DNA of 52,527 nucleotides, from contig DATKVL010000107.1 in assembly GCA_035530115.1 (NCBI GenBank), positions 1-52,527 of the forward strand. The letters run 5' to 3'. Numbering within the stretch: position 1 is the first letter of the stretch; each line of letters starts with the position of its first letter. The notes below the pieces were generated by a model that saw only the letters and a program-made list of their open reading frames with translations, was not told the origin of the DNA and did no database searches. Of the stretch, positions 22,380 through 51,726 are shown one piece after another. Source of the stretch: Dehalococcoidia bacterium (GTDB taxonomy: Bacteria > Chloroflexota > Dehalococcoidia > GIF9 > AB-539-J10). Made by a program: the position numbers and the translations under genes.

Positions 22380-22380
22380 A

Positions 22381-25882: not shown

Positions 25883-25905
25883 TAATTCTTAGGAGGAAAA
25901 TATTG

Positions 25906-26859: not shown

Positions 26860-26875
26860 GAGCTAAAGCTGAACG

Positions 26876-32017: not shown

Positions 32018-34373
32018 AGGACCGATAATCACTGGCCGTTTGCGGCTTAAGGATGAGACAGGTAAGACACTGGACTCGCTTAGAGGTAAAATAGGGTCAG
32101 TCTTCGGCATCATAGCGAAGAGCGTCATGGTCGCCGGCGCCGCCGCCGTGACGGGGATGGGGTTATCCATCAAAGCGGCTGCCGACTTCGAGGAAGCCCT
32201 CACCAGAATCATAGCGGCGTCAGGTAAGACCGGTGAGGAGGCGAAGAACCTTGAAACCGCTTTATCTGACGCAGCCAAGGCGGCGGGCCCCGAGTTCGGG
32301 ATAAGCGCGACGAACGCCGTAGTCGCCCTAGAGGCCCTCGTGAAGGCGGGTCTTGAGGGAGAGGAGGCCATAACAGCGCTTCAGGGGGCGCTGCAGCTCG
32401 CGGCTCTCGAAGGAATGGGTACTGCTGAAGCCTCCAACATGCTCGTATCGGCGATGACGATGTTCGGCCTCGAAGCTGAGGACGCAACCCACATAATCGA
32501 CATGTTCTCGGCTGCCGCTGACGCAGGCATAGACGCCGCAGGGGGCTATGCGGCGGGCCTCTCAAACGTAGGGGCCACGGCTAACGCCATGGGACTCAGC
32601 ATGGAGGAGACGATGGCTGCCCTTGTGCAACTTGACAAAACGTTCGGCGGTGCCCAGGAGTCCGGGACATTCCTCAACCGCATGCTTCTTGACATGACTT
32701 CGAAGGCGGACAAGGCAGGACTCGAACTCTATAATGTGGACGGCTCGATGAGGAGTCTGGACGACATCATGGGGCAGGTTCGTGAGGTCTTACAGGGATT
32801 CGGAGATGACCAGAAGGCAGTCAACGAGTGGCTGGGGCAGTTCGACATGCGAGCCCAGAAAGCCATCCTCGGTCTCGCTGGCTATGATGAAAGCATCTAC
32901 GAGACTCAGAGAGACCTTGAGCAGATGCGGTCGGCGCAGGATAAAGTCAACTTGGTTCTCGACACGTTTGCGGGGCGTATGAAGATAGCGGGGTCTCGCA
33001 TCCAGGTGATGGCTGTGAGTCTAGGGGAGCGGCTGATGCCTTACGCCCTCGGCGTGTTAACCGTATTTGAGGACTGGATGCCAGTGATCAGCGACCTTAT
33101 CGACGACTTCGCCACCTTCGCAACTAAGATTTTTGATGTGGCGGGCGCCCTCGCGGAGGGCGACTGGGACGCAGCGTTCAGAATCATAGAGGAAATCTAC
33201 AGCGGCATATCAAGCAAATTCGTGGAGTGGTTTAACGAGATCGATTGGGATGGGGTGTGGGCTAAAGCCAGGGCGTTCCTCGGAACCCTCTACGAGAGAT
33301 TCATGGGTTGGGCTGGGGACATAGCGTCCTTCTTCATCGCTTGGTGGGGCAAGATTGACTGGATCGCCGTATGGAGTGGACTTCAAACCTTCACTGAGGG
33401 TCTATTCGATACGATCAAAGGGTGGGCCGGCGACATCGCCACGTTCTTCGTTGACTGGTGGGACGCCACAGACTGGGACGAGGTGTGGGGCGGCCTGAAA
33501 AGATACGTCACTTATCTATGGGATAAAGTCGCGGGATGGGCCGGGGACATAAGCACCGCCTTCCTCAACTGGTTCGGAACCGTTAACTGGTCAACCGTCT
33601 TCGGCGGACTAAGCGACTGGATGGACGCTTTCTGGGGTTGGCTCTTCGGCAAGGCGGTGCCGGACATAGAAACGGCTTTCACTGAATGGGTGGGCACGGT
33701 CGACTGGTCCGCCGTCTTCAAGAGCCTGGGATCGTTTGCCGTTAACCTTCCCTTATGGATATTTGAGCAGATCAGTAAAGCCCCTCAAAACATCGGGTAC
33801 TATATAGGCGAGCATATTAGAGAAACAGATTGGCGTGAGGTCTTCAGTGCCATCGGGGACGGGATCGTTGACACTCTTAAGGGCGCCGCGGACACGTTCC
33901 TTGACTGGATGCCAGACTGGCTTAAGGAACTGCTCGGCCTCAAGAAAATAGAGGTTCCTGCACAGCCTAAACCGCCTGCGCCAACACCCCCCGCGCCGAC
34001 ACCGCCAAGAGATGGAGACAGAGATGGGGCGCCAACGCCTCCTGCACCAGCACCGCCCGTACCAACGCCCCCAGCGCCGACGCCACCCACACCATACATT
34101 CCGGAGGGTCCGTGGGGCGGCGCCGAGAGGTTCGCAGTCCAACACGGATTCGAGGGTATGGTGACGAAGCCGACTCATTTCCTCGCCGGCGAAGCTGGGT
34201 CCGAGTACGTGAGCGTCACGCCCCGGGGTGCCCTGGCGGAGCGAGGGAGTGGCGACATCAACATCAATGTGACTGTGGGGTCTATGGAGTCATCGGAGGA
34301 TGCGAGGCGTTACGCCGTCGAGTTCGCTGATGAGGCCGTGAGGGAGCTTAGAAAGAGGGGGGTTACCATGTGA
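32010..34373 (+). CDS. Tail tape measure protein (TP901-family core)
   Basis: 787 aa; FEEALTRIIAASGKTGEE...ATNAVVALEALVKAGL...ASNMLVSAMTMFGL core; W-rich 38-aa tandem repeats; C-terminal FLAGEAGSEYVSVTP motif. Confidence 0.85.
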   Translation: MSEGPIITGRLRLKDETGKTLDSLRGKIGSVFGIIAKSVMVAGAAAVTGMGLSIKAAADFEEALTRIIAASGKTGEEAKNLETALSDAAKAAGPEFGISATNAVVALEALVKAGLEGEEAITALQGALQLAALEGMGTAEASNMLVSAMTMFGLEAEDATHIIDMFSAAADAGIDAAGGYAAGLSNVGATANAMGLSMEETMAALVQLDKTFGGAQESGTFLNRMLLDMTSKADKAGLELYNVDGSMRSLDDIMGQVREVLQGFGDDQKAVNEWLGQFDMRAQKAILGLAGYDESIYETQRDLEQMRSAQDKVNLVLDTFAGRMKIAGSRIQVMAVSLGERLMPYALGVLTVFEDWMPVISDLIDDFATFATKIFDVAGALAEGDWDAAFRIIEEIYSGISSKFVEWFNEIDWDGVWAKARAFLGTLYERFMGWAGDIASFFIAWWGKIDWIAVWSGLQTFTEGLFDTIKGWAGDIATFFVDWWDATDWDEVWGGLKRYVTYLWDKVAGWAGDISTAFLNWFGTVNWSTVFGGLSDWMDAFWGWLFGKAVPDIETAFTEWVGTVDWSAVFKSLGSFAVNLPLWIFEQISKAPQNIGYYIGEHIRETDWREVFSAIGDGIVDTLKGAADTFLDWMPDWLKELLGLKKIEVPAQPKPPAPTPPAPTPPRDGDRDGAPTPPAPAPPVPTPPAPTPPTPYIPEGPWGGAERFAVQHGFEGMVTKPTHFLAGEAGSEYVSVTPRGALAERGSGDININVTVGSMESSEDARRYAVEFADEAVRELRKRGVTM
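33228..33737 (+). repeat. About 4.5 in-frame tandem repeats of 114-117 nt (38-39 aa, W-x-x-x-I/V-D/N-W...GWAGDI...) inside the tape measure gene
   Basis: Unit starts at 33228, 33342, 33456, 33570 and 33687, each beginning TGG; WFNEIDWDGVW / WWGKIDWIAVW / WWDATDWDEVW / WFGTVNWSTVF / WVGTVDWSAVF. Confidence 0.85.
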
Positions 34374-37351: not shown

Positions 37352-40039
37352 ATGCCGATGGCGGAAATAGGTTTACCTGTCTCAAGTCAGAACCTGAAAA
37401 TAACTCATAACGGCGTCGACTATAACCTCGTCGAATCCGTTTTCACGGCTCCGGCGGTGGCGAGCACTCGTATAGAAGCCAGGTCGAGCAATGCCGTTGA
37501 CAACACGCAGAACCTTGTGGTATATGGCATAGTAGCCGGAGCCCCAGTCTCAGAGAGCTTCGCGCTTAACGGCACCACATGGGTGAATGGAGCCCTGGAC
37601 TTCACCGAGGTCTTCGAGGCCTACCTAGACGCTGTCTGTGCGGGCACCGTCTCGATCAGGGATAGCACCGCCGTCGTCCTCGGAACGATAGCCATCGGCC
37701 GTCGGGTGCTCAGCCCCGACGTATTCAAGCGTGTCGGCAAGGACGGCAACGAGGTTATCCTGCCGCTCTGCGGGGGCTGCGAGTTCGTCGGCGAGGTCCT
37801 TGAGGGCCAATTTAAGAAGGACTGGGACGCCGACATAGTCACCTTCACGGCACGGATCAATGGCGTGGTCACGGGCATGCTGGAGATGGGCGGCGAATCT
37901 GACTCCGATGGCACCTTGAGATATGGCTGGATCAACAACCATCACCCCTTTGTTCTGATGAACAAGGCGGAGCTAACGGTTGAGCTGGAGATCCCGACGG
38001 CGGACACCACTACGCCAACTTATGACATATACTTCGAGTTCTACATACGAGACCAGAAGGAGTTAACCACACCGTCAAATGATCCAAACTTCATCATGGT
38101 ACGACACTTCGTAGACCAGAACGGCCTAATTCTGCAGCTATACAAGGAGGTGGGCGGCGTCAACACGCTTCTGTGGGACGGTTCCACCGCAGACGGCGAC
38201 AGCATCTTCAGCACCACCGCCGACCAGTTCTGGATATTCCGATTCGTCTTCCACGACGGCCACGCCGGCGAGGCGGCCCCGGCGGATGACAGGCACATGC
38301 ACGTCTACGCTAAGCACGGCGCCAGCCGGGCGACCGCTGAGGCGGCGACGGAGGAGGAACTCTATGACACCGTTGGCACCCAGGCGAGCCCCTACGACAT
38401 AAGCGATCTGCTCTTCAAGGTGGGCTACCCGGCGTATCAGATCATAACTGCAAACGAGATATGGTTCGGCGATTCGGTGGGCTCCGGCCTTGAGGCGATA
38501 AGCACTTACCTGCGCACCAGTTACCCCGCCCTCTTCGCGTTGAAGTACGACTTCACGGACGCGGACTATGGGGATGGGGATGTGTGTCTCTACGATGGAG
38601 ATCCGGCGTTAGCGACTTCACAGCGTGTTTACGATGAAGATCACGAATTCGCGTCTGATGCTTACTTACAAAACGGTTTGTTGAGGCTTCACGTAGATGC
38701 GGGTGTTGATGGACTGAAACTATATTATTGGACGGGGGCAGTATGGGCTCAACCAGTTAAAACCATAAATATGGCTCTCGAAACGGACGTCATCTCTTTA
38801 AGGTATGTTCATCTACTTGGGGTGAATCAGGTTTCCCCCGAAAAAACAAGTATACGGCTAAAGTTCACGGAGACAGCGGTTAACAATAATAATTTTTATA
38901 TAATTATGACCATATCGCTTCAGAGGGGAAAATGGTCTTTAGAATGTATCATCACCAACATTCAACCAGAACAACCCACCCAAATTGGAAACTTATCGAA
39001 CATTCCTAAAATGAGGTGGGGATATGTTGGAGATGGTAAAATTGGTGACGAGGATGTATCTGTATCTGGAACAAATACCACGTTCACAGACAACTTTTTA
39101 TTAATATTTGATGATGGTGACGCCGTTGTTTTCACGGTATCTATGAACAAAAAACCAAATAGTGCCCCCTTAAGATTTATTACTTCTACTGGTGGTCTGC
39201 TTGTGGCGGATGCCTTCAGCCCCGCAACAGCATTAGAAAACACATTCTGGTTATCATTAACTCCGTTCCCTCTTGTCGCTAATCTCTTCAAGGAAGCTGA
39301 GGACGCTACGCTGGGCGCTGGGGCGGCGAGGCTGTTCGGGGAGCCGGCGGTTGGGTCAGCGAACTTGCAGGCGTTCAGCGCGGGGGCGGATGTGGGCAAC
39401 GTGTTGACGATCATCGGCGACGTGGGCGGCGTCAGGACGACGGACACGATCACGCTGAACGGCGTCGCCGTGGTTCCCGGCACGGAGGACTTCGACCGCG
39501 TCTACATATTGAAACTAGCCCCGGCGGCGGGTAACAACGTGACGGTGCAGGACAGCCTCGGCAACCCCATACACATCATACCCGCAGGGACGACCCTCGT
39601 GAGTAATTGCGTGATACTGGACGCTATAACCGAGTACGTCCGATACAACTTCACTGCTGGCACCGACCTGCCCGCTGGAAGGTACTTCGCCTTCTTCCGT
39701 GTGGCGGATCAGTTCCAGGTGGCGGACGACATAGCGTTGAGGGTCACCAACGCTACGGATGGTGAGCAGCGGGGCGAGCAGAACAGCGAGTTCACCGTCA
39801 CTGCGCCTGCGGCGTCTGCGTATGGGTACTATGGGGAGGTCTTCGACATACTTGAGGAGGACGTGGCGGGGCTGAATACCATAGGTATGGTGGTGACGAA
39901 AGACACGGGCGGCGGCAACGAAATCTACGTCGACTACTTCCTCTGTATTCCCATCGGAGACGGACGCGATTGGCCGGGTGACCTTGCCCACGCAGCCCTG
40001 CGCACCTTCACGAAGCCGAGGCGCCTCTACGTCCGCTGA
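37352..40039 (+). CDS. Tail fibre / receptor-binding protein (putative), compositionally mosaic
   Basis: 895 aa, last gene of the tail module; duplicated ~65-aa domain near both ends; AT-rich internal segment ~38590..39285. Confidence 0.55.
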   Translation: MPMAEIGLPVSSQNLKITHNGVDYNLVESVFTAPAVASTRIEARSSNAVDNTQNLVVYGIVAGAPVSESFALNGTTWVNGALDFTEVFEAYLDAVCAGTVSIRDSTAVVLGTIAIGRRVLSPDVFKRVGKDGNEVILPLCGGCEFVGEVLEGQFKKDWDADIVTFTARINGVVTGMLEMGGESDSDGTLRYGWINNHHPFVLMNKAELTVELEIPTADTTTPTYDIYFEFYIRDQKELTTPSNDPNFIMVRHFVDQNGLILQLYKEVGGVNTLLWDGSTADGDSIFSTTADQFWIFRFVFHDGHAGEAAPADDRHMHVYAKHGASRATAEAATEEELYDTVGTQASPYDISDLLFKVGYPAYQIITANEIWFGDSVGSGLEAISTYLRTSYPALFALKYDFTDADYGDGDVCLYDGDPALATSQRVYDEDHEFASDAYLQNGLLRLHVDAGVDGLKLYYWTGAVWAQPVKTINMALETDVISLRYVHLLGVNQVSPEKTSIRLKFTETAVNNNNFYIIMTISLQRGKWSLECIITNIQPEQPTQIGNLSNIPKMRWGYVGDGKIGDEDVSVSGTNTTFTDNFLLIFDDGDAVVFTVSMNKKPNSAPLRFITSTGGLLVADAFSPATALENTFWLSLTPFPLVANLFKEAEDATLGAGAARLFGEPAVGSANLQAFSAGADVGNVLTIIGDVGGVRTTDTITLNGVAVVPGTEDFDRVYILKLAPAAGNNVTVQDSLGNPIHIIPAGTTLVSNCVILDAITEYVRYNFTAGTDLPAGRYFAFFRVADQFQVADDIALRVTNATDGEQRGEQNSEFTVTAPAASAYGYYGEVFDILEEDVAGLNTIGMVVTKDTGGGNEIYVDYFLCIPIGDGRDWPGDLAHAALRTFTKPRRLYVR

Positions 40040-40074
40040 GAACAGAGCAAGGAACCGACCAACCCACAAGAACC

Positions 40075-40116
40075 CTTATATATTGTTACCCGTACCCCAA
40101 TGTGGTGATGAATACG
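40075..40116 (+). promoter_or_regulatory. Motif A copy 1: TATA box plus conserved leaderless start (cttatatattgttacccgtaccccaatgtggtgatgaatacg)
   Basis: 38/42 identical to 41439..41480; TATA 26 nt upstream of GTG 40102. Confidence 0.7.
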
Positions 40117-40482
40117 ACAAAAACGCAAATTATGAAGCGCGGTTTACTATTTTTAACCGTTTTCCTAATCACATTAGGAACCATATCAATGGCGCTTCCG
40201 TCAGATAGCCAACTCAGCGAAGTCATTGGATACATCGAGGAATGCCGGGACATACACATATTATGGGTTGATTACCTCACCGAGAATAGCGAATTTGACT
40301 CCTCCCAAGTCGGCGATGTTCAATGGCACCAGGAATGGGTTGAACGATACAACGAAACCCTTGACATCCTGTATGATACGCGCCGTCTAGCCCAGCTGGT
40401 TAACCCGTTCTCCCTTCCCTGGACGCCGAGCGACCGTATATCTGCCTCCCTGATTCTGGCAGCCTCGACCAGCCAACCTTAA
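40102..40482 (+). CDS. Secreted/membrane-anchored hypothetical protein
   Basis: ORF track 126 aa; signal-peptide-like MKRGLLFLTVFLITLGTISMALP. Confidence 0.6.
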   Translation: MVMNTTKTQIMKRGLLFLTVFLITLGTISMALPSDSQLSEVIGYIEECRDIHILWVDYLTENSEFDSSQVGDVQWHQEWVERYNETLDILYDTRRLAQLVNPFSLPWTPSDRISASLILAASTSQP

Positions 40483-40500
40483 AGACGGATAGTTTCTGAC

Positions 40501-40560
40501 CATATTCACCTACGCGTCAGGGGGCTCCTTGTCACGCCCCAAAACCTAATAAAAATAGAT
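40501..40560 (+). repeat. Motif B copy 1: conserved hairpin element (…gtcaGGGGCtccttgtcacGCCCCaaaacc…) followed by an A-rich tract
   Basis: 35/44 identity over the core with 41346..41407; GGGGC/GCCCC stem. Confidence 0.65.
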
Positions 40561-40642
40561 ATTCTAGGCACCATGAAGCAGCACCTTCATACACACAATG
40601 GATTTAAAAACATCTCCCCCCTCCTTCTTTAATTGATGAAAG

Positions 40643-41344
40643 TTGAGTGAAGAGAACCCTATCTGCAGGATCACGAAGCTAGAACATCCCTATACCATGC
40701 CCATCGACGGAGATCTCCAGATTGGAATCGAGTACAATAACACTAGCGTAGAGGGACCAACGTTCTACAGGACGAGAAAGCCTGGCACCTGGGACTTTAA
40801 AATGATGGCGGACATACCCAGCCACAGCCCAGGGGAACTGCATGGAGGCCATACCTACTATGCCGTTCCAAAAGGTCACCTGATCCTTCAGGTCGAGGTG
40901 GGACACGGCACATGGCTTAACCCGATAAAGATCACGGACACCAAGATGATAATCATCCTGCACCCCGACTATCCCGCACCCGATCCAAGCGACACGAAGG
41001 TCATCGTTGACATCGTTACGCCCCCTAAGATGTGGCCTGTAACGCAACGATTCTGGGCGGAGCCTGGATCAACCATAATGGCGGCTTGGATCTACGACAA
41101 CCGAGAAGGGGAACATGCGTGGAGGGTTAAATACAGCCGTACAACTTCCGTTGACATAGGCGTGGTGCCTCTGGACTGGGTTGTGAACGGTGCACCTTTC
41201 GGATCATCATCTGAGGTGTACGAGATCGCCCCAGGGGAGACACATGTGATCGAGGTTAAGGCATCAACACCTGCCGACTACGAACCCAAACTCATTAACT
41301 TCAGAGTGATACCCGTCAACCCAGAGCTTGTGACACCTATCTAG
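40643..41344 (+). CDS. Hypothetical protein (beta-rich)
   Basis: ORF track 233 aa (TTG start). Confidence 0.55.
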   Translation: MSEENPICRITKLEHPYTMPIDGDLQIGIEYNNTSVEGPTFYRTRKPGTWDFKMMADIPSHSPGELHGGHTYYAVPKGHLILQVEVGHGTWLNPIKITDTKMIIILHPDYPAPDPSDTKVIVDIVTPPKMWPVTQRFWAEPGSTIMAAWIYDNREGEHAWRVKYSRTTSVDIGVVPLDWVVNGAPFGSSSEVYEIAPGETHVIEVKASTPADYEPKLINFRVIPVNPELVTPI

Positions 41345-41345
41345 G

Positions 41346-41407
41346 CACATTCACCCAAGGGTCAAGGGGCTTTTTGTCACACCCCAACAGGCAGTAAAAA
41401 ATAAAGG
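41346..41407 (+). repeat. Motif B copy 2 (…gtcaaGGGGCtttttgtcacaCCCCaacagg…)
   Basis: See 40501..40560; starts 2 nt after the stop of 40643..41344. Confidence 0.65.
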
Positions 41408-41438
41408 GCGTATTTACCCACCATATTTTTATGAAAGA

Positions 41439-41480
41439 CTTATATATTGTTACCCGTACCCTTGTGTGGTGATGAAAACG
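41439..41480 (+). promoter_or_regulatory. Motif A copy 2 (cttatatattgttacccgtacccttgtgtggtgatgaaaacg)
   Basis: TATA 26 nt upstream of GTG 41466; drives the RHH gene. Confidence 0.7.
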
Positions 41481-41645
41481 CCGAAACCAGGTTTTAAACA
41501 AATCACCCTTTCCGAGGAACTTAAGGATCAAATCCAGAGCAGAGCTAGAGCCGAGGGGTTGACTATGCCTGACTTACTCCGGAAGCTTCTCGAAACAAAC
41601 TACCCAGATTACCCTGCTCCGGCGGGGGAGGAGAAAGAAAAATGA
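41466..41645 (+). CDS. Ribbon-helix-helix (CopG/Arc-type) regulator
   Basis: Below the track cutoff; (VV)MKTPKPGFKQITLSEELKDQIQSRARAEGLTMPDLLRKLLETNYP...; start is GTG 41466 or ATG 41472. Confidence 0.65.
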   Translation: MVMKTPKPGFKQITLSEELKDQIQSRARAEGLTMPDLLRKLLETNYPDYPAPAGEEKEK

Positions 41646-41767
41646 GCAAGGAGACAAGGTGCCGTGTCTGTGGTCGTCTGCTCACTGTCCCTGAGAGCGT
41701 GGATCGTGGGATAGGGCCCGTCTGTTGGGCACGCCTCAAGGCGAAAAACGGGGAGGCTGATGTATGA
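41642..41767 (+). CDS. Small Zn-binding protein (41 aa), DUF6011-like CxxCGRxL...GxGPxC motif
   Basis: ATGA overlap; MSKETRCRVCGRLLTVPESVDRGIGPVCWARLKAKNGEADV. Confidence 0.5.
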   Translation: MSKETRCRVCGRLLTVPESVDRGIGPVCWARLKAKNGEADV

Positions 41768-43147: not shown

Positions 43148-43368
43148 TGAAGGTAGTTAAACGGATCAGAGTCAACGCCCGGCTGCCTGACTACGAAGGC
43201 AAGTACCGGGACGAGATCACTCAGGAGTTCACCATAGAGCTTGAGGAAGAAAACGACATACTTGACGCCCTTATTGACAGGGTGAACGACGGGATGGCTA
43301 TCCAGTTGGGTACAATGCTTAAAAAGATCGATGAACTGGGTGGCCGTGACTACACGGAGGCGACCTAA
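43144..43368 (+). CDS. Hypothetical protein
   Basis: ORF track 74 aa, ATGA overlap. Confidence 0.5.
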   Translation: MMKVVKRIRVNARLPDYEGKYRDEITQEFTIELEEENDILDALIDRVNDGMAIQLGTMLKKIDELGGRDYTEAT

Positions 43369-43369
43369 A

Positions 43370-43570
43370 ATGGGTGAGCAGAAAATAACTCCGAAGTGCC
43401 CTAGATGCGGCGAGACTACCAACCAATATCTGCGGGGTTGGGAGGAGGGTTACATGAAGTACCGGTGTGGGCATTGTAAGAAATCGTACAAGGTGATGGA
43501 AGATGGGGAGGACATAGTCAAGTCGAGCCAGCTAGGCTTCCAGATAAACGACAAGGAGGCGAATCCATGA
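43370..43570 (+). CDS. Zn-ribbon protein
   Basis: ATG 43370 inside track ORF 43331..43570; CPRCGETTNQ...YRCGHCKKSY. Confidence 0.55.
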   Translation: MGEQKITPKCPRCGETTNQYLRGWEEGYMKYRCGHCKKSYKVMEDGEDIVKSSQLGFQINDKEANP

Positions 43571-43702: not shown

Positions 43703-43885
43703 GTGATAATCACACAGGCCCTCCTGCAGCGACACCAAGGCACTATGCTCTGCAAAGGCTGCGGCGAACCTCTAAAGGAAGGCGAGAACGTTGCGCGACG
43801 TCGCGTAAACAGCCGAGCCCGGTATTTTCACTGGGGCTGCATCTACACAGAGGCGCGTGAGACGGCCGAGGAGGCTGAGGGCTGA
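43703..43885 (+). CDS. Small Cys-containing protein
   Basis: ORF track 60 aa (GTG after ggaggctgagg); CKGCGE...HWGC. Confidence 0.5.
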   Translation: MIITQALLQRHQGTMLCKGCGEPLKEGENVARRRVNSRARYFHWGCIYTEARETAEEAEG

Positions 43886-44193
43886 TGAGAGTAAAGAGCG
43901 TGTCAGACCTCGCCTTTAAAGCACTTGATTTTCTCACCGAGGATGAAGATGAACTCTGGGTGGCCCACATCGTATTCGACGGCCAGGCCAAGGAGACAGG
44001 CAAAATCCAAAAAATTATGAAACAAGACTGCGGGAACTCATACGACTCCGTCCAGCGAACACTGAAACGGCTTGTTGAGAAAGGAATCATCATCCGGGTA
44101 CTTCAAGGCAAATATGAGCCAAACCTGGGGATGCTACTTCCCAAGATGATTGATCTCCTTGAAGCAGAGCAAGAGGCTGAGGGCGTTGAGTGA
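43885..44193 (+). CDS. Winged-helix DNA-binding protein
   Basis: GKIQKIMKQDCGNSYDSVQRTLKRLVEKGIIIRVLQGKY. Confidence 0.55.
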   Translation: MRVKSVSDLAFKALDFLTEDEDELWVAHIVFDGQAKETGKIQKIMKQDCGNSYDSVQRTLKRLVEKGIIIRVLQGKYEPNLGMLLPKMIDLLEAEQEAEGVE

Positions 44194-44455
44194 TCTCGGA
44201 CCCGTCTCTCAGGCTATCCTGGACTACATTCAGGAACGCCCCCAACCCATCGAGATATTCCGGATGATCCACGCCGTCTCCAAGGTAACGAAGACTTCTC
44301 ACTCAAGTAAATGGTATTTCCGTCAACTCGTGGGGCTCCACATCGAGGGCCGCATAGAGGCGTCGATGGTTAGGCAAGGTGACAAGCTGGGCATCAGGTG
44401 GCGACGCCTACCGGAGTTTAAAGAGGCAGAGGGAGAGGTAGGTAAAAGTGAGTGA
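44186..44455 (+). CDS. Winged-helix-like protein
   Basis: TTG 44186 inside track ORF 44150..44455; LSDLGPVSQAILDYIQERPQPIEIFRMIHAV... Confidence 0.45.
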   Translation: MSDLGPVSQAILDYIQERPQPIEIFRMIHAVSKVTKTSHSSKWYFRQLVGLHIEGRIEASMVRQGDKLGIRWRRLPEFKEAEGEVGKSE

Positions 44456-44467
44456 GAGTGCACTCTG

Positions 44468-44540
44468 ATCATTTATTTATATCAACCATTATTTTTATGA
44501 CAATCCATTTAATCAGATAAAAATAAATATATCTACGAAT
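44468..44540. other. AT-rich tract with imperfect inverted A/T repeats; candidate replication origin
   Basis: atcatttatttatatcaaccattatttttatgacaatccatttaatcagataaaaataaatatatc; largest intergenic gap (44456..44658), directly upstream of the wHTH + MCM genes. Confidence 0.4.
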
Positions 44541-44580
44541 CATCCATACTTGGTGCGGTGATCGACATGTATAGGGAAGA

Positions 44581-44657
44581 TTATGCTCCCTCTTCCCTAA
44601 CCCACCAACCCATCAATTTTATATAATAGGGAACCCTCATCCCATTTGGGAGCATAA
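44581..44657. promoter_or_regulatory. 10-bp perfect inverted repeat (TTATGCTCCC ... GGGAGCATAA) bracketing a TATA box (ttttatataata, 44617..44628)
   Basis: Arms at 44581..44590 and 44648..44657; the right arm abuts TTG start 44659. Confidence 0.6.
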
Positions 44658-44658
44658 G

Positions 44659-45282
44659 TTGAATGATCAGGTCCAGTTACAGGACACGCGTAGCCTGACG
44701 GAAAACCTCACTGAAATACTTCTTTCTCTTTCTAGACTAGAAAAAGAAAGTAGTAGTAATAGTAGTAATGTATTCGGCGAGGACGTGAATCGAGCGAAGT
44801 GCCTCATGGCTGCGTATCTCTTACCTGGGGGCGGATGCCTGCAATACATTCTTGAGCGGAAGGCATTCACGATCCCCATAGTGGCCTCCTCCACAGGGGT
44901 TGAAATCAACCTCATCTACAGTGTCGTGGGGAGACTTGTCAGAGGCGGCGTGGCTTATGAACGTTACAGGGTTGGGGGCCAAGGTAGACCTGCCAATCTG
45001 TATGCATTGTACGATGCCTCTGATAGTCAGGTGGTGGAGGCGGCCAACCTCTACAGGGACGCAAACACTGAACACGTTAAGCGTCTTGACGACTATCTGG
45101 TAGATCATGACTACAAAGAGGTAGCGGAGGAAGCTGTGAAGTACCTCAATGAGGAGGGGCAATTAGGTTCGTGGACTCTGGTTAACCTGTTAGCGGTTAA
45201 GCGGATATACGACGATGACGCGTTGCTTGAGGTGCGGCGCATCGTGGCTTCTATGGGATACACCATTGTGGAGGGAGCCTGA
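44659..45282 (+). CDS. Winged-helix protein upstream of MCM (possible origin-binding or regulatory protein)
   Basis: ORF track 207 aa; IYSVVGRLVRGGVAYERYRVGGQGRPANLYAL looks like a wHTH wing. Confidence 0.55.
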   Translation: MNDQVQLQDTRSLTENLTEILLSLSRLEKESSSNSSNVFGEDVNRAKCLMAAYLLPGGGCLQYILERKAFTIPIVASSTGVEINLIYSVVGRLVRGGVAYERYRVGGQGRPANLYALYDASDSQVVEAANLYRDANTEHVKRLDDYLVDHDYKEVAEEAVKYLNEEGQLGSWTLVNLLAVKRIYDDDALLEVRRIVASMGYTIVEGA

Positions 45283-47537
45283 TGGACGCCCTGGACTTGG
45301 ACATGGAACCACTCCGCGAATACCTAACAGGCTGCGGGGCTGTGCCCCCGTTGGATGCAGCCACCATGCGGCTCGACGGGAGCCTAGTGATCAACCTCAC
45401 GGACCTCTACCAGTATAGCACCGAACTCGTGGAGCGCCTAGTCAGTGACACAGATAAAACTCTGTTGGATGTCTCATACCACGTTAAGGAGTTGCTGACG
45501 ATGCGTGTCCCCGAGTTGATCAGGGACCACCCGGTGGAGGTTCATCTAGTCGGGCATCCCGACCAGGAGACTCCCCTTCGGAGTCTACGCAGCCACATGA
45601 TAGGCAGCCTTGCGTCAACGTCCGGCATTGTTGTCAAGATCACGCAAACGGAGCCGAAGATCAGGGAAGCCTATTATATCTGTCAGAAGTGTGGGCAGGG
45701 CATTAGAGTCCCCCAGAAGATGCAGTACAGAAGCGAGCCGTTAGATAGGTGCGATAACTGTAAGGGGAAAAACTGGGTACTCGATCCATCACACAGCGTA
45801 TTCGAGGACATTCAGTTGCTGAAGCTGCAGGAGGCGCCTGAAAGCCTTCCCTCGGGGCAGATGCCTCGCACATTCACCTACGAACTCAGGGGATTGCTCT
45901 GTGGACGTGTCAACGCGGGTGACCGGATTAGGATCACTGCGGTTATCGACGCGGCTATGGCGGGAAAGAGCAGCCCTGAACGCAGACTAGAGATGTATGG
46001 GCGCTGCTTTGGCTTCGGGTATCTAGCCGAAGATGCGGAAGACCTGGAGTGCAGCACCGAGGACGCGCAGAGTTTCAGTGATATGGCTAAGAGGCAGGAT
46101 ATGTTCGCCGCCGTCACCGATAGCGTCGCCCCCAGCATCTACGGGCTCAGGGAGGAAAAGCAGTGCGTCGCCGCCTACCTGATGGGTGGGGAAGCCAAGG
46201 AGATGGAGGATGTCCGCATAAGAGGCGACATAAGCGTCCTACTCATCGGTGACCCTGGTTTGGCGAAGAGTCAACTACTTAAGTTCGCCTCTAAAGCCAG
46301 CCCACGGGGACTCTACACCACAGGCAGGGGCAGCAGTGCCGCAGGTCTCACGGCGGCGGTGGTCAAGGATAAGGACATCGGATACAGCCTTGAGGCGGGC
46401 GCCCTAGTTCTGGCTGACAGGGGGCATGTATCCATCGATGAGATCGAGAAAATGGAAGAGAACGACAGACGCGCCATACACCCCGCCATGGAACAACAAA
46501 TAGTGCCGATCAACAAGGGCGGCATCAACACGACTCTTAACGCACGATGTGGGATATTGGGGGCTGGGAACCCTAAGGATGGGAGGTATAACCCATACCT
46601 TACCGTGGTTCAGAATATCAATCTCGAAGAGACCATACTGAACAGGTTTGACTTAATACGAGTGATGAAGGATCAGCCAAACGAGGAGCGAGACGCAGCT
46701 CTAGCAGATCACCTGCTGAGAGTGCATCGCGGTGAGCAAGTTCAGTCACCTCTCACTCTCAGAGAACTCCGAAAATACGTGGCATATTGCAGAAAACACA
46801 TACACCCTGAGGTACCCCCGACAGTGGGTCAGCAACTTAAGGAATATTACTTAGGTCTCCGACGCACCAAGGAAGGCGACATAGGGGATCCCAAGCAACC
46901 TACCATCATGATCACTCCCCGACAATTCGAATCATGCATACGGGTCACCGAAGCCGTGGCCCGATCCAGGCTCCACGAGGTAGCCACAGAGGACGACGCC
47001 CTCACCGCTCTGGGAATCATCGAGGCAAGCATGGAGCAAGTAGGCGTAGACCCCACCACAGGGGAACGCAACATAGACAGCTGGATGACGGGGAAGCCTA
47101 AAGGGTTACATCAGAAGCTGGAGTTGCTTCGTAACATCATATATGAGATGCAGTGCGAAGCCACTGACGGGCATTGTGACTACCAGACGATGCTGCAGCG
47201 GGTGACCGAGAAGGGGCTCTTCAAGGTATCCGAGCTAAGGAAATTCGTTGAGCAGCTGCTCCTCGAGGATGCGTCAGAGCCTGTGACGGGGAAACTACGG
47301 ATACTTAAGCCGATGGGGTACACGGGGAAGGCGCGGAGCCTCAAGGGTCAGCTACAGAAGACGCTGCAACTGATAGGGGAGATGAGCACTATAGAAAGCG
47401 GTGTCAAGGACGACGACCTGTATGAGGCGTTGCAGGGTCAGGGCGTGACGCGGTCAGAGGCCGCCAAACTAGTAAGCGTACTCATGAAGGATGGCACCAT
47501 ATTCAGCCCCCGCCCAGGCATATATCGCCGCACATAA
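45282..47537 (+). CDS. mcm: MCM replicative helicase
   Basis: Zn motif CQKCG...CDNCKG; Walker A LLIGDPGLAKSQLL; Walker B HVSIDEIEKM; sensor/arginine finger CGILGAGNP...NRFDLI; C-terminal wH region. Confidence 0.95.
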   Translation: MDALDLDMEPLREYLTGCGAVPPLDAATMRLDGSLVINLTDLYQYSTELVERLVSDTDKTLLDVSYHVKELLTMRVPELIRDHPVEVHLVGHPDQETPLRSLRSHMIGSLASTSGIVVKITQTEPKIREAYYICQKCGQGIRVPQKMQYRSEPLDRCDNCKGKNWVLDPSHSVFEDIQLLKLQEAPESLPSGQMPRTFTYELRGLLCGRVNAGDRIRITAVIDAAMAGKSSPERRLEMYGRCFGFGYLAEDAEDLECSTEDAQSFSDMAKRQDMFAAVTDSVAPSIYGLREEKQCVAAYLMGGEAKEMEDVRIRGDISVLLIGDPGLAKSQLLKFASKASPRGLYTTGRGSSAAGLTAAVVKDKDIGYSLEAGALVLADRGHVSIDEIEKMEENDRRAIHPAMEQQIVPINKGGINTTLNARCGILGAGNPKDGRYNPYLTVVQNINLEETILNRFDLIRVMKDQPNEERDAALADHLLRVHRGEQVQSPLTLRELRKYVAYCRKHIHPEVPPTVGQQLKEYYLGLRRTKEGDIGDPKQPTIMITPRQFESCIRVTEAVARSRLHEVATEDDALTALGIIEASMEQVGVDPTTGERNIDSWMTGKPKGLHQKLELLRNIIYEMQCEATDGHCDYQTMLQRVTEKGLFKVSELRKFVEQLLLEDASEPVTGKLRILKPMGYTGKARSLKGQLQKTLQLIGEMSTIESGVKDDDLYEALQGQGVTRSEAAKLVSVLMKDGTIFSPRPGIYRRT

Positions 47538-47571
47538 TCTGTAGGAGAGAACCAAAGGAGGAACACCAGAA

Positions 47572-47886
47572 ATGACTACAAACATGCAATCGACTAGCCT
47601 GGAGGTCTTCTTCGGGGAGGTGCTTCCTAGTCTCAGTGAGAGACAGGGACAAGTCCTCGACATATTCCTAGAGAACCCGATACTTGATTTCACAAACATG
47701 GAGCTCGCCGAGGAGTTGGGGTGGAGCATCAACCGAGTTACGCCCAGAGTCTACGAACTACGTGGCGAAGGCAAACACAATCCTCTCAAACATAATCCGG
47801 TGCTCATAGAGAGCCGCCGACGCGAATGCCTGGTTACAGGACGAAAAGCCATCGCCTGGGCTTTCAACCCAGATAGGGGGAGATAA
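47572..47886 (+). CDS. Winged-helix DNA-binding protein
   Basis: LSERQGQVLDIFLENPILDFTNMELAEELGWSINRVTPRVYELRGEG. Confidence 0.6.
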   Translation: MTTNMQSTSLEVFFGEVLPSLSERQGQVLDIFLENPILDFTNMELAEELGWSINRVTPRVYELRGEGKHNPLKHNPVLIESRRRECLVTGRKAIAWAFNPDRGR

Positions 47887-47887
47887 T

Positions 47888-48085
47888 GTGCAATCTCGGC
47901 CTTACAATAATAATCACAGGTGTCCTGACTGCGGTGAATGGCTAAAGAGGGAAACCCCGAACGGAAGGTATAACTGCAATAACCCGACGTGCCCTGTGAT
48001 CTATGTGAGGTTCTCACGTGTGGCGCCTCAGTACAAGATCACGAGGATAAACAGGGCCGCCGTGCTCGACATGACGTTTAAATGA
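47888..48085 (+). CDS. Zn-ribbon protein
   Basis: ORF track 65 aa (GTG); CPDCGEWL...YNCNNPTCP. Confidence 0.55.
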   Translation: MQSRPYNNNHRCPDCGEWLKRETPNGRYNCNNPTCPVIYVRFSRVAPQYKITRINRAAVLDMTFK

Positions 48086-48099
48086 CCCAAGACCTTGGT

Positions 48100-48126
48100 C
48101 CCGCCCGGAGTTTGACGATGGGCGGG
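48100..48126 (+). terminator. Hairpin CCCGCCC-N13-GGGCGGG after the last gene of the GC-rich block
   Basis: 7-bp perfect stem read directly; no adjacent T-run, so its function is uncertain. Confidence 0.3.
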
Positions 48127-48187
48127 TATGACTTTCTAAGACCAAATAGGTATGGGTAACTGGTGAAATGTTGTTCGGTGAAATTGA

Positions 48188-48250
48188 CGAGGGGCAGGCA
48201 TAGATGTGACAGGCCACCGGCTCAGCGGAGTCTACAACAAAGTCAAATAA
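48188..48250 (+). pseudogene. 3' remnant of a paralog of the 8461..8781 membrane-protein gene
   Basis: ggggcaggcatagatgtgacaggccaccggctcagcgg versus ggagcaggcgtagatgtcgcaggccaccgcctcagtgg (8671..); RGAGIDVTGHRLSGVYNKVK* versus TGAGVDVAGHRLSGAINQL; in-frame TGA immediately upstream. Confidence 0.65.
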
Positions 48251-48313
48251 GGCTTATATGCCCCTTTTTAAATACAAAACCTTAATAACGATAAAACCTA
48301 GAATATAATTACA

Positions 48314-48454
48314 ATGACAAAAAGACAAATAGCCATTGAAGATGAAACATGGATGTCACTAAACCAGTTAAAGGAACCCGGAGACACATTTGACGAAGTT
48401 ATCAAAAAACTGCTAACCTTCTGGTGGAAGAAAAACGAGGAGGGAGAGCCATGA
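48314..48454 (+). CDS. Small RHH/antitoxin-like protein (46 aa)
   Basis: MTKRQIAIEDETWMSLNQLKEPGDTFDEVIKKLLTFWW parallels the N-terminus of the 13111 RHH protein; the antisense track ORF 48298..48573 is rejected. Confidence 0.5.
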   Translation: MTKRQIAIEDETWMSLNQLKEPGDTFDEVIKKLLTFWWKKNEEGEP

Positions 48455-48561
48455 AAGAATTTCCCCGGAAAGAACTTCCCCAAGAATTTCTGATAGAGGC
48501 AACTAGACTCCTGCGACAGATCAATGAGGAGAGGAGGAAAAATGAGCGAATACAATCGTAA
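48451..48561 (+). CDS. Small hypothetical protein (36 aa)
   Basis: ATGA overlap; MKEFPRKELPQEFLIEATRLLRQINEERRKNERIQS. Confidence 0.3.
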   Translation: MKEFPRKELPQEFLIEATRLLRQINEERRKNERIQS

Positions 48562-50235: not shown

Positions 50236-50259
50236 CACCCCCCTCTTTTTTCTAAAGTT

Positions 50260-50313
50260 GACGGTAGGGGGTGGTGACGAAACGACCAAGATAAAGGTAG
50301 TTACCCCTCCGTC
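50260..50313 (+). other. Imperfect hairpin (GACGGtAGGGG ... CCCCTCCGTC) containing a TATA-less copy of GTGGTGACGAAACG
   Basis: Stem arms at 50260..50270 and 50304..50313; the GTGGTGACGAAACG copy at 50271..50284 opens only a 7-codon ORF. Confidence 0.4.
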
Positions 50314-50372
50314 AGTACCTATCTGGGTTAGGAGTATAAAGAGATTTCACCTCAAAACAGATCACCCAAAGT

Positions 50373-50415
50373 TTTATATATTTATTACCCGTACTTCACT
50401 GTGGTGACGAAGACG
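50373..50415 (+). promoter_or_regulatory. Motif A copy 3 (tttatatatttattacccgtacttcactgtggtgacgaagacg)
   Basis: About 35/42 identity plus 1 indel to copies 1 and 2; TATA ~27 nt upstream of GTG 50401. Confidence 0.65.
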
Positions 50416-50607
50416 GCTAACCAGAAATACCCCTCCTGTATCGGCGAGATGTACGAGCTGGGCGAGAAGTACATGGCCTCCAACTGCATGGGTTGCAGGG
50501 CCTTCAACGACTGCAGCGGGATAGGCGGCGGAGTCGAGACCACTAAGGCGAGCGTCCTGATCCCTGAGGAGCCCTCCACATGGGGCGAGATCCATTCGAG
50601 GTGGTGA
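50401..50607 (+). CDS. Small Cys-rich hypothetical protein
   Basis: ORF track 68 aa, GTG start within motif A; the antisense ORFs here are rejected. Confidence 0.55.
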   Translation: MVTKTANQKYPSCIGEMYELGEKYMASNCMGCRAFNDCSGIGGGVETTKASVLIPEEPSTWGEIHSRW

Positions 50608-50658
50608 AGATGGCTAAACTTAACTTGGTTGTCATCATACATAAAGTAGTCAAAGAAG

Positions 50659-50862: not shown

Positions 50863-50866
50863 GAAG

Positions 50867-51689: not shown

Positions 51690-51726
51690 CCATTAACCCC
51701 AACGCCAAGAGGACGGATGGAGAACA

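What the first reader, a model, noticed from the sequence alone, without database searches (positions are those of the whole stretch)
40075..41480. Conserved 42-nt promoter-plus-start element (motif A) present three times, extending into the coding sequence
cTTATATATTGTTACCCGTACCCnnnTGTGGTGATGAAnACG occurs at 40075..40116 and 41439..41480 (38/42 identical). A diverged third copy lies at 50373..50415. In each copy the TATA box is ~26 nt upstream of GTG-GTG-ATG/ACG, implying leaderless mRNAs that begin at the conserved GTGGTGA(T/C)GAA. Conservation runs through the spacer and the first five codons of three unrelated proteins (a secreted protein, an RHH regulator and a Cys-rich protein). The element therefore acts at the nucleic-acid level, as a shared operator, initiator or 5'-terminal GGTGAT ribosome-binding signal. 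One of the three genes is an RHH repressor-type protein, which suggests an autoregulated regulon.
Basis: partly seen in the sequence, partly recalled or inferred. Interest (0 to 1): 0.66.

Follow-up and report, generated by a model that had tools for sequence, protein, structure and literature searches.

The report
Shared promoter-operator cassette of an archaeal virus
Three operons of this uncultured head-tailed archaeal virus start with the same ~45-bp signal (TATA box, an invariant near-palindromic protein-binding box, and a GGTGAY ribosome-binding/start box), which is conserved in six related viruses and most likely lets one small viral repressor control all three; this is a clean example of a kind of control already known from other archaeal viruses.

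Summary
Motif A occurs exactly three times in the window (40075-40116, 41439-41480, 50373-50415), always on the + strand, in an intergenic gap, at the head of a gene cluster. It is not a local duplication: 13 non-redundant copies occur at orthologous positions in 7 related uncultured viruses, whose flanks are otherwise unalignable. Three blocks are invariant: a TATA 8-mer; TTACCCGTAC, which contains the near-palindrome TACCCGTA (a perfect palindrome TACGCGTA in one relative); and GGTGAYGA. The spacer and the first GTG are not conserved. GGTGA starts 21-23 nt after the TATA box, where an archaeal transcription start is expected. In two relatives the ORF is out of frame with GTG/ATG and can only start at ATG/TTG 3 nt after GGTGAT. 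The "first five codons" are therefore a nucleic-acid signal (initiator plus 5'-terminal Shine-Dalgarno-like box), not conserved coding sequence. Best reading: a regulated archaeal promoter, operator and translation-start cassette. The RHH protein encoded right after copy 2 is the leading candidate autorepressor, because it co-occurs perfectly with the motif. This is a new member of a known kind (virus-specific early-gene regulatory sequences; F55, SvtR, AvtR, Aca8). Transcription starts, start codons and the binding protein are inferred, not shown.

The parts
40075..40116 (+). Motif A copy 1. TATA 8-mer CTTATATA 40075-40082; box TTACCCGTAC 40086-40095; variable spacer 40096-40103; GGTGATGA 40104-40111; ACG 40114-40116.
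   Evidence: An orthologous copy follows the homologous tail gene in L099.
40105..40482 (+). Gene headed by copy 1: a small protein with a signal-peptide-like N-terminus (MKRGLLFLTVFLITLGTISMA from ATG 40132). Possible starts are GTG 40105, ATG 40108, ACG 40114 and ATG 40132.
   Evidence: No Pfam family. In L099 a non-homologous 2-TM protein takes its place behind the same motif.
41439..41480 (+). Motif A copy 2. TATA 41439-41446; box 41450-41459; spacer 41460-41467; GGTGATGA 41468-41475; ACG 41478-41480.
   Evidence: Orthologous copies lie upstream of the RHH gene in L001, L003, L007, L096 and L099.
41469..41645 (+). RHH (CopG-type) gene, first gene of the replication-module operon (RHH, DUF6011 Zn-ribbon ... 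MCM 45282-47537). It is the candidate autorepressor that binds the box.
   Evidence: Pfam RHH_1 E 6.4e-5, 23.2 bits, above the 20.5 cutoff. Best solved relative by sequence profile is AvtR 4hv0, E 0.0025. It co-occurs with the motif.
50373..50415 (+). Motif A copy 3. TATA TTTATATA 50373-50380; box 50385-50394; spacer 50395-50402; GGTGACGA 50403-50410; ACG 50413-50415.
   Evidence: Orthologous copies are in L001, L002/L003, L004 and L096.
50404..50607 (+). Cys-rich 67-aa gene headed by copy 3. It is the first gene of a long run of small, mostly Zn-finger genes that continues across the circular junction to about 8165.
   Evidence: The 141-nt terminal repeat shows a circular or terminally redundant genome.
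50255..50320 (+). Conserved upstream element holding a half-copy of the 3' block (GGTGGTGACGAAACG, 50270-50284) inside a possible hairpin. It has no TATA box at promoter distance.
   Evidence: RNAalifold support is weak. No Rfam match (whole-window gathering scan).

Best explanation
Motif A is a composite expression cassette of a small clade of head-tailed archaeal viruses, whose hosts are probably Bathyarchaeia. It has three parts. (1) An archaeal core promoter: a purine-rich BRE-like AAG/TAG followed by the TATA box YTTATATA. (2) An invariant 10-bp box, TTACCCGTAC, whose core TACCCGTA is an 8-bp near-palindrome. It sits at about -20 to -10, between the TATA box and the start site. A bound dimeric protein there would block TFB/RNA polymerase recruitment, so it is a repressor operator. 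(3) A GGTGAYGA box that begins 21-23 nt after the TATA box and is always preceded by a pyrimidine. It therefore coincides with the predicted transcription start (Y-1/G+1) and gives mRNAs that begin 5'-GGUGAY. GGUGAU is the core of the archaeal Shine-Dalgarno sequence. Translation then starts either on the GUG/AUG inside the box (leaderless-type) or on the codon 3-4 nt downstream (SD-type; certain for the two out-of-frame relatives). In the window the three copies head three transcription units: a small secreted protein, the RHH-replication (MCM) module, and a long run of small Zn-finger/accessory genes. This places all three under one regulator. The most likely regulator is the RHH protein encoded immediately after copy 2, which would repress its own operon and the other two. 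Shown: the sequence anatomy, copy number, positions, conservation across 7 viruses, the frame data and the co-occurrence. Inferred: the transcription start, the start codons, that the box is protein-bound, repression rather than activation, and the identity of the binder.
For: There are exactly three copies, all on the + strand, all intergenic and all at the head of a gene cluster. There are 13 non-redundant copies in 7 related viruses at orthologous positions. The flanks are unalignable and third codon positions downstream vary, but the TATA box, TTACCCGTAC and GGTGAYGA are invariant. The only variant of the box, TTACGCGTAG in L096 copy 2, turns TACCCGTA into the perfect palindrome TACGCGTA. 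The distance from the TATA end to GGTGA is 21-23 nt in all 13 copies, and the preceding base is always T or C. The three motif-A genes lack the AGAGGAC/GGAGG Shine-Dalgarno sequence seen 6-8 nt before most other ATGs. The ORFs of L003 copy 2 and L099 copy 1 are in the GGT-GAT frame, with TTG/ATG 3 nt after GGTGAT as their only start. In the window's own genes the start codon lies mostly 3-6 nt after the position aligned with the T of GGTGAT, and 17482 uses GAGGTGATGAGAA-ATG. GGUGA is the Sulfolobus SD consensus (Tolstrup 2000, as cited in PMC11627041). The RHH assignment rests. The RHH orthologue and one Zn-ribbon protein are the only proteins present in every motif-A virus that covers the region and absent from the motif-less relatives L091-L093 and L098. 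The RHH beta-strand residues F-x-Q-(I/V)-T are invariant in motif-A viruses. The divergent RHH of L091 reads Y-T-T-V-S, and its promoter carries ACATGT repeats instead. Precedents exist for virus-specific promoter-plus-operator consensus sequences and for RHH autorepressors in archaeal viruses (PMC11065993; PMC5569661).
Against: There are no transcript, footprint or binding data. A single 8-bp site per promoter is short for an RHH repressor, which usually binds several adjacent sites cooperatively (PMC5569661). The co-occurrence of RHH and motif rests on about 5 versus 4 genomes and is confounded by phylogeny. The Zn-ribbon protein 43331-43570 shows the same pattern. The window encodes other DNA-binding candidates: wHTH 43885-44193, TrmB-like 44659-45282 and a second RHH-like/VapB-like protein at 48314-48454. 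Copies within one genome are sometimes more alike than orthologues (L003 copies 2 and 3 are almost identical over about 45 nt), so intragenomic homogenisation contributes to the similarity. The function of the conserved GAA-N-ACG after GGTGAY is unexplained.
Confidence: 0.6

Rival explanations
1. It is a strong constitutive promoter with a leaderless start and has no dedicated regulator. TTACCCGTAC would be a promoter-proximal element tuned to the host TFB/RNA polymerase, and the copies stay alike through gene conversion.
For: The TATA geometry fits. Strong BRE/TATA promoters are shared among early genes of other archaeal viruses and highly expressed host genes (PMC11065993). Near-identity of copies within one genome (L003 copies 2 and 3) suggests homogenisation.
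Against: The -20 to -10 region is not normally a sequence-specific contact of TBP/TFB. The box is GC-rich and palindromic, and its one variant increases the palindrome. Other TATA promoters in the same genome (for example 44618, 8436) lack the box. The exact pattern is absent from 185,579 archaeal and bacterial species genomes, and the relaxed hits are at chance level. So it is not a general host promoter element.
Confidence: 0.17
2. The architecture is the same, but the box is read by a factor other than the RHH. This could be the co-occurring 79-aa Zn-ribbon protein (43331-43570), a wHTH/TrmB-like viral protein or a host regulator, and it might activate rather than repress.
For: The Zn-ribbon protein has the same phyletic pattern as the RHH. 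Several other DNA-binding candidates are encoded. Zn-finger regulators are known in archaeal viruses (PMC5569661).
Against: The RHH gene is the only one that is always directly fused to a motif copy. A compact 8-bp palindrome suits one RHH dimer (MetJ-type 8-bp boxes; my own knowledge). A position downstream of TATA is typical of repressors, not activators (established knowledge).
Confidence: 0.15
3. The cassette is a module-boundary or recombination linker. The conserved 45 bp would serve mainly as homology for swapping downstream gene cassettes between co-infecting viruses.
For: Behind copy 1 the window and L099 carry non-homologous genes, although the upstream tail genes are homologous. In L001 an extra Zn-ribbon ORF is inserted behind copy 3 while the first about 27 nt are kept. 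L004 is a mosaic of the window.
Against: Homology-driven exchange does not require an invariant TATA box at a fixed distance from GGTGA, a palindromic box or strict + strand gene-start placement. Mosaicism is better seen as a by-product of a conserved regulatory cassette.
Confidence: 0.05
4. The copies are replication-origin or initiator-binding repeats (ORB-like or iteron-like) for the viral MCM-based replication module.
For: GTGGTGACGAA loosely resembles archaeal ORB cores (recalled from memory, not tested). The genome encodes an MCM. A half-copy lies 130 nt from copy 3.
Against: The copies are 1.4 and 9 kb apart, all in one orientation, each locked to a TATA box and a gene start. They flank no AT-rich unwinding element, and the AT-rich stretch at 44470-44535 has no motif. 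MCM-sharing relatives L100-L102 lack the motif, while motif-bearing L001, L096, L099 and L004 showed no MCM match in the fetched parts of their contigs.
Confidence: 0.02

Closest known systems
Virus-specific early-gene (anti-defence gene) regulatory sequences of Sulfolobales viruses, e.g. SIRV2 with Aca8 (Bhoobalan-Chitty et al. 2024, PMC11065993)
   Same: A consensus of a strong BRE/TATA promoter plus flanking virus-specific conserved sequence precedes several unrelated small genes in one genome. The gene of the putative repressor itself always carries the motif. The consensus differs between viruses and is thought to co-vary with the regulator.
   Different: The host lineage (likely Bathyarchaeia) and virus type (head-tailed Caudoviricetes) differ. 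Here there are 3 copies heading long operons rather than many single genes. The specific element lies downstream of TATA and is an 8-bp near-palindrome. The candidate regulator is an RHH, not the wHTH Aca8. The conservation also covers the transcription and translation start. Early timing and anti-defence function are unknown here.
SSV1 F55 (RHH) repressor and its sites in the T5, T6, Tind and Tlys promoters
   Same: A small viral RHH protein binds repeats in a handful of promoters, including its own, overlapping the TSS/BRE, and switches a set of early operons (PMC5569661).
   Different: F55 sites are tandem direct repeats (ATAGATAG), two per site. Here there is a single palindromic box per promoter. 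No integrase or lysogeny module was found in the window, so a lysogeny switch is not implied.
SIRV1 SvtR and AFV6 AvtR (RHH autoregulators of archaeal viruses)
   Same: These are RHH regulators that repress their own promoter and a few other viral promoters. AvtR is the best solved-structure match to the RHH profile by sequence (E 0.0025).
   Different: Their sites are longer imperfect inverted repeats, often distal to the promoter, with oligomerisation along the DNA. Binding here is untested.
Sulfolobus-type dual translation initiation (leaderless first genes; GGUGA Shine-Dalgarno for internal genes; Tolstrup 2000, cited in PMC11627041)
   Same: The first genes of the operons have a TATA box about 25 nt before the start region and no upstream SD. 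Internal genes of the virus use SD motifs. GGUGA(U) is the SD core.
   Different: Here the SD core itself sits at the predicted 5' end of the mRNA. In two relatives it must serve a start codon 3 nt downstream. This is a hybrid 'ultra-short leader with 5'-terminal SD' arrangement rather than a classic leaderless AUG.
Start-associated sequences (SAS) of cluster K mycobacteriophages (own knowledge, not checked here)
   Same: These are repeated conserved motifs that overlap the ribosome-binding site immediately before the start codons of unrelated genes in one phage genome.
   Different: SAS are bacterial, 13 bp, present in 10-20 copies and not tied to a promoter. Their function is also unproven.

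Membership tests
Archaeal core promoter (BRE/TATA/initiator) | An 8-bp TATA box of TTTAWATA type with a purine-rich BRE just upstream | tested here: met
   YTTATATA, TTTAAATA or GTTATAAA is present in all 13 copies, preceded by AAG/TAG/GAAC. The consensus is taken from PMC11065993.
Archaeal core promoter (BRE/TATA/initiator) | A transcription start about 22-25 nt downstream of the TATA box, at a purine after a pyrimidine | not testable with these tools
   The geometry fits: GGTGA starts 21-23 nt after the TATA end and the base before it is T or C in 13/13 copies. No transcript data are available.
Repressor operator of an RHH autoregulator (F55/SvtR/AvtR/CopG type) | The regulator gene has an RHH fold | tested here: met
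   Pfam RHH_1 scores 23.2 bits against a cutoff of 20.5. A profile of the orthologues hits AvtR, MazE6, VapB26 and NikR.
Repressor operator of an RHH autoregulator (F55/SvtR/AvtR/CopG type) | A symmetric or repeated site within the regulator's own promoter | tested here: met
   TACCCGTA (7/8 palindromic) lies between the TATA box and the start of the RHH gene in 6/6 viruses. In L096 it is the perfect palindrome TACGCGTA.
Repressor operator of an RHH autoregulator (F55/SvtR/AvtR/CopG type) | Specific binding of the protein to the site and repression of transcription | not testable with these tools
   Only indirect evidence exists: perfect co-occurrence and invariant beta-strand residues.
Repressor operator of an RHH autoregulator (F55/SvtR/AvtR/CopG type) | Multiple adjacent sites that allow cooperative binding | tested here: not met
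   There is one box per promoter. TACSSGTA occurs only 4 times in the window, 3 of them in the motif.
Leaderless mRNA start | A start codon at or within a few nt of the 5' end, in frame with the ORF | tested here: inconclusive
   An in-frame GTG (and ATG in the T-type copies) exists in 11/13 copies. In L003 copy 2 and L099 copy 1 the ORF is in another frame, with TTG/ATG at +10.
Shine-Dalgarno-led start | Complementarity to the 16S 3' end at the spacing used by other genes of the genome | tested here: inconclusive
   GGTGAT matches 6 nt of the SD sequence. The codon 3-4 nt downstream lies in the main spacing range of the window's genes (3-6 nt). That codon is ACG in 9/13 copies, ATG in 2 and TTG in 1. 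The host 16S rRNA is unknown.
Early-gene / anti-defence regulatory sequence (PMC11065993) | The same promoter-plus-flank consensus precedes several unrelated genes of one virus, including the regulator gene | tested here: met
   Three unrelated genes are involved, including the RHH gene.
Early-gene / anti-defence regulatory sequence (PMC11065993) | Immediate-early expression and an anti-defence function of the downstream genes | not testable with these tools
   There are no expression data. The downstream genes have no informative families.

The most novel reading that the evidence does not exclude
The mRNAs begin with a 5'-terminal Shine-Dalgarno core (GGUGAY), and translation of most motif-A operons starts on the conserved ACG codon 4 nt downstream. 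This would be a near-cognate, deliberately weak start that is replaced by ATG or TTG in some relatives. It would mean non-AUG/GUG/UUG initiation and an 'SD at nucleotide +1' mode of ribosome recruitment in viruses of Bathyarchaeia. The conserved half-copy in the upstream hairpin (50270-50284) might act as a decoy or competitor for the same factor.
Probability: 0.1. Interest if true: 0.7.

Novelty: new member of a known kind. Interest (0 to 1): 0.4.

Why it matters
Almost nothing is known about gene regulation in viruses of uncultivated sediment archaea such as Bathyarchaeia. This cassette gives a precise, testable regulon: three promoters, one 10-bp box and a 57-aa RHH candidate. It also provides a sequence tag (TTACCCGTAC-N8-9-GGTGAYGA) that identifies members of this virus clade in metagenomes. 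It marks which genes are likely to be co-regulated, and possibly early or accessory. The frame data also make a small but concrete point for gene callers: the annotated GTG-GTG-ATG starts are not reliable, and an SD-like box at the very 5' end of an archaeal mRNA may direct initiation 3-4 nt downstream.

Tried and rejected
Chance or a purely local duplication is rejected (conservation in 7 viruses). No known RNA family matches: the whole window at gathering threshold gave nothing, nor did 39900-41700 at E<=1, and there are no tRNAs. The predicted 5' mRNA regions have no unusual structure (z from -0.5 to +0.7). A host-genome promoter element is unlikely: the strict pattern is absent from genome contigs, and the relaxed pattern gave 71 hits in unrelated bacteria, consistent with chance. 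L005, L008-L019, L024 and L069 share no proteins with the window and were treated as chance matches. IMG/VR protein-anchored scans with the MCM and with 40697-41344 found nothing, and blastn against isolated phages and archaeal viruses found nothing. More distant relatives (L091-L093, L098; anchor 53-58% identical) and MCM-sharing viruses (L100-L102) lack the motif. The GTGGTGACGAA inside the tail gene at 39890 is not conserved in L099 and was dismissed as chance. The hairpin around the half-copy looked to have compensatory changes when read by eye, but RNAalifold found no double-sided covariation, so it remains unresolved. An att site or lysogeny switch is unlikely, because no integrase was found among the larger ORFs. 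The origin/ORB idea is rejected on geometry and phyletic pattern.
Full report
WHAT THE WINDOW IS. The first and last 141 nt are identical, so the window is a complete circular or terminally redundant genome of 52,386 bp. Essentially all genes are on the + strand. It encodes:
- a T4-type large terminase (9490-10911);
- a tape-measure protein (32010-34373);
- large tail proteins running up to 40039;
- an 8.5-kb glycosylation gene cluster;
- an MCM helicase (45282-47537).

The terminase is closest (41% identity) to that of Methanobacterium virus psiM2. The nearest cellular relatives of the MCM (41-44% identity) are from Bathyarchaeia. The contig is in GenBank, binned into a 'Dehalococcoidia' MAG. 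That is almost certainly a binning error, because this is a head-tailed archaeal virus.

THE OBSERVATION.
- Copies 1 and 2 share an exact 22-mer; 0.01 matches are expected in shuffles.
- The 16-mer TGTGGTGAYGAANACG matches exactly at the three sites and nowhere else.
- A profile HMM built from nine copies finds three hits at E<1e-15, and the next hit is at E=0.2.
- The 10-mer TTACCCGTAC occurs only in the motif.
- Each copy lies in an intergenic gap on the coding strand, directly in front of a gene: 40105-40482 (signal-peptide protein), 41469-41645 (RHH; Pfam RHH_1 above threshold) and 50404-50607 (Cys-rich protein).
- These three genes lack the AGAGGAC/GGAGG Shine-Dalgarno motifs found 6-8 nt before most other start codons of the genome.

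CONSERVATION ELSEWHERE. An exact-pattern scan of JGI metagenomes returned six loci. Five encode relatives of the window's proteins; the sixth, L005, shares none. A relaxed scan of IMG/VR added L007. Contigs encoding homologues of the neighbouring 275-aa protein added L096 and L099. After removing duplicates there are 13 copies in 7 viruses:
- upstream of the RHH gene in all six viruses whose fetched DNA covers that region;
- upstream of the Cys-rich gene region in five;
- after the homologous tail gene in the window and L099.

In the alignment of the six RHH promoters, the upstream DNA of L003, L007 and L099 cannot be aligned with the window, and third codon positions in the RHH gene vary freely. 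The TATA box, TTACCCGTAC and GGTGATGA are nevertheless invariant. The motif has limits. More distant relatives (L091-L093 and L098, with the anchor protein 53-58% identical) and viruses that share only the MCM (L100-L102) do not have it. The strict pattern is absent from 185,579 species genomes, and relaxed hits there are at chance level.

ANATOMY.
- Block 1 is a TATA 8-mer (YTTATATA, TTTAAATA or GTTATAAA) preceded by AAG/TAG. This matches the archaeal BRE/TATA consensus quoted in PMC11065993.
- After 3-5 variable bases comes block 2, TTACCCGTAC, identical in 12 of 13 copies. Its core TACCCGTA is a 7/8 palindrome. The single variant (L096 copy 2, TTACGCGTAG) makes it the perfect palindrome TACGCGTA.
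- An 8-9-nt spacer follows that is not conserved.
- Block 3 is GGTGAYGA. It reads T in the RHH and copy-1 promoters and C in all copy-3 promoters.
- Block 3 is usually followed by A-N-ACG.
- The distance from the end of the TATA 8-mer to the first G of GGTGA is 21-23 nt in all 13 copies, and the preceding base is always a pyrimidine. For archaeal promoters, whose TATA box is centred near -26/-27 (established knowledge), this places the transcription start on GGTGA with a Y(-1)/G(+1) initiator. This is an inference; no transcript data exist.

CODING OR SIGNAL? Translating all frames shows that this holds for 11 copies but not for two.
- In L003 the RHH ORF is in the frame GGT-GAT-GAT-TTG, and the GTG/ATG frame stops after 17 codons.
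- In L099 copy 1 the membrane-protein ORF is in the frame GGT-GAT-GAA-ATG, and the GTG/ATG frame stops after 8 codons.

In both cases the only available start codon lies 3 nt after GGTGAT. In L001 copy 3 an ATG replaces the ACG 4 nt after GGTGAC.

I then measured the Shine-Dalgarno register in the window's own genes. For the 41 genes with at least 5 contiguous matches to AGGAGGTGATCC, the start codon lies mostly 3-6 nt after the position aligned with the T of GGTGAT. One internal gene (17482) uses GAGGTGATGAGAA-ATG. GGUGA is the recognised Shine-Dalgarno core in Sulfolobus (Tolstrup 2000, as cited in PMC11627041).

Block 3 is therefore a nucleic-acid signal. It looks like an initiator plus a Shine-Dalgarno core at the extreme 5' end of the mRNA. 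In at least two viruses it must serve a start codon 3 nt downstream. For the other copies the choice between GUG/AUG within the box (leaderless-type) and the downstream codon cannot be made from sequence. That downstream codon is ACG in 9 of 13 copies, and its third position never varies, even where neighbouring codons do. An ACG start is the most novel reading that the data do not exclude. I give it about 10%.

WHAT BLOCK 2 IS FOR. Four features are what is expected of an operator for a dimeric DNA-binding protein acting as a repressor: it is an invariant, GC-rich, palindromic 8-10-mer; it sits between the TATA box and the start; it is absent from the other TATA promoters of the same genome (for example 44618 and 8436); and it is absent from cellular genomes.

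The RHH protein is the leading candidate binder.
- Its gene is fused to a motif copy in every virus whose fetched DNA covers that region.
- It and one 79-aa Zn-ribbon protein (43331-43570) are the only proteins whose presence tracks the motif across nine related viruses.
- Its predicted DNA-reading beta-strand residues (F-x-Q-I/V-T) are invariant among motif-A viruses, although overall identity is only 46-70%.
- The divergent RHH of L091 reads Y-T-T-V-S, and that gene's promoter carries four ACATGT palindromes around its TATA box instead.
- The best solved-structure relative of the RHH profile by sequence is AvtR, an autoregulator from an archaeal virus.

The weak points are as follows.
- There is only one short site per promoter, whereas RHH repressors usually bind several sites cooperatively.
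- The phyletic sample is small and phylogenetically confounded.
- Other DNA-binding proteins are encoded.
- There is no binding experiment.

REGULON. In the window the three copies head:
(i) a small secreted protein placed right after the tail genes; in L099 the same motif at the same place drives a non-homologous two-TM protein;
(ii) the operon carrying RHH, the DUF6011 Zn-ribbon protein, several other genes and the MCM;
(iii) a run of some 40 small, often Cys-rich genes that crosses the genome junction and ends near 8165, before the structural module.

In L001 an extra Zn-ribbon ORF has been inserted behind copy 3 while the first about 27 nt after GGTGA were kept. The cassette thus behaves as a portable unit, and mosaicism around it is probably a by-product of its conservation.

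COMPARISON WITH WHAT IS KNOWN. The closest described phenomenon is the virus-specific consensus regulatory sequence found in front of early or anti-defence genes of Sulfolobales viruses. It consists of a strong BRE/TATA promoter plus flanking conserved sequence. The repressor gene (Aca8) always carries the motif, and different viruses have different flanks that presumably match different regulators (PMC11065993). RHH autorepressors that control a few viral promoters are also well documented: F55 of SSV1, SvtR of SIRV1 and AvtR of AFV6 (PMC5569661). Motif A fits this kind. The differences are the virus type and probable host lineage, the position and form of the specific element (a single 8-bp near-palindrome downstream of TATA), the fact that it heads long operons, and the extension of conservation into a 5'-terminal SD-like start box. 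I therefore rate it a new member of a known kind, with one unusual detail (block 3 and the ACG) that deserves an experiment.

VERDICT. Confidence in the composite promoter-operator-start cassette is 0.6. Within that, confidence that it is a promoter is about 0.85, and confidence that the RHH is the binder is about 0.4. Interest is 0.4.

Noticed in passing
window 50255-50351 (and L001 9899-9995, L002, L004, L096): A conserved ~60-nt element lies between gene 49405-50235 and motif A copy 3. Read by eye, it has an outer stem GACGG(T)AGGGG/CCCCTCCGTC (ACTGAGGGG/CCCCTCAGT in L002 and L096) and an inner stem ACC/GGT (GCC/GGC in relatives). The loop carries GGTGGTGACGAAA(C/A)G, the same 3' block as motif A. 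It is followed by a conserved AGTATAAAGAnnTTTCACC, possibly a second TATA box. RNAalifold gave only weak support and there is no Rfam hit.
   Followed up: partly
window 40500-40577 and 41345-41425 (also L001 711-800, L096 ~9260-9330): A second repeated intergenic element ('motif B') sits after the stop codons of 40102-40482 and 40643-41344. It reads ATTCACC..., then a hairpin GGGGC-N10-GCCCC with a T-run in the loop, then A-rich AATAAAAATA and CACCAT. It could be a terminator plus a further promoter, or a small RNA.
   Followed up: no
window 50600-52527 and 1-8165: Many junctions between the small genes carry the repeat AATCCATTAA (stop codon included), N10-15, AAGAGGAC, N6, ATG (repeat families D3, D4, D12, D15, D16). 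Conservation at the nucleotide level across unrelated gene ends and starts suggests a shared translational-coupling or processing signal.
   Followed up: no
window 19346-27880: An ~8.5-kb glycosylation cluster lies inside the structural module of a tailed archaeal virus. It comprises six glycosyltransferase genes (one fused to a methyltransferase domain), a double-methyltransferase gene and an NAD-dependent epimerase/dehydratase gene. The 24-26 kb stretch has markedly lower G+C (0.41 against about 0.57).
   Followed up: partly
window 29114-29875 and 30163-30861: There is a NUMOD3 + Vsr/DUF559 homing-endonuclease-like gene, with internal ~35-nt and 67-nt repeats nearby (29201-29535, 30315-30471). 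They lie in a low-G+C island just before the tape-measure gene.
   Followed up: no
window 44470-44535 and 44618-44665: An AT-rich stretch lies upstream of the TrmB-like and MCM genes and is a possible replication origin or unwinding element. A separate TATA promoter (TTTATATA 44618-44625) has its predicted start falling on GGGAGC, 11 nt before a TTG start. This is a second case of an SD-like sequence at a predicted mRNA 5' end.
   Followed up: no
whole window; protein P0001/P0075: The contig is deposited in GenBank as part of a 'Dehalococcoidia bacterium' MAG (locus tag VMW50_03235). It is a complete archaeal head-tailed virus genome, so this is a likely binning error.
   Followed up: partly
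L091 7350-7435: In a more distant relative that carries an integrase, the RHH gene's promoter has four ACATGT palindromes around its TATA box and a divergently transcribed 77-aa gene. This is a lysogeny-switch-like arrangement with a different operator sequence.
   Followed up: partly
L004 (Ga0307375_10020580) vs window 44250-50849: L004 is 86-100% identical to parts of the window but joins 44409 to about 48006 through unrelated DNA. It therefore lacks the MCM block, which points to recent module exchange within this virus population.
   Followed up: no
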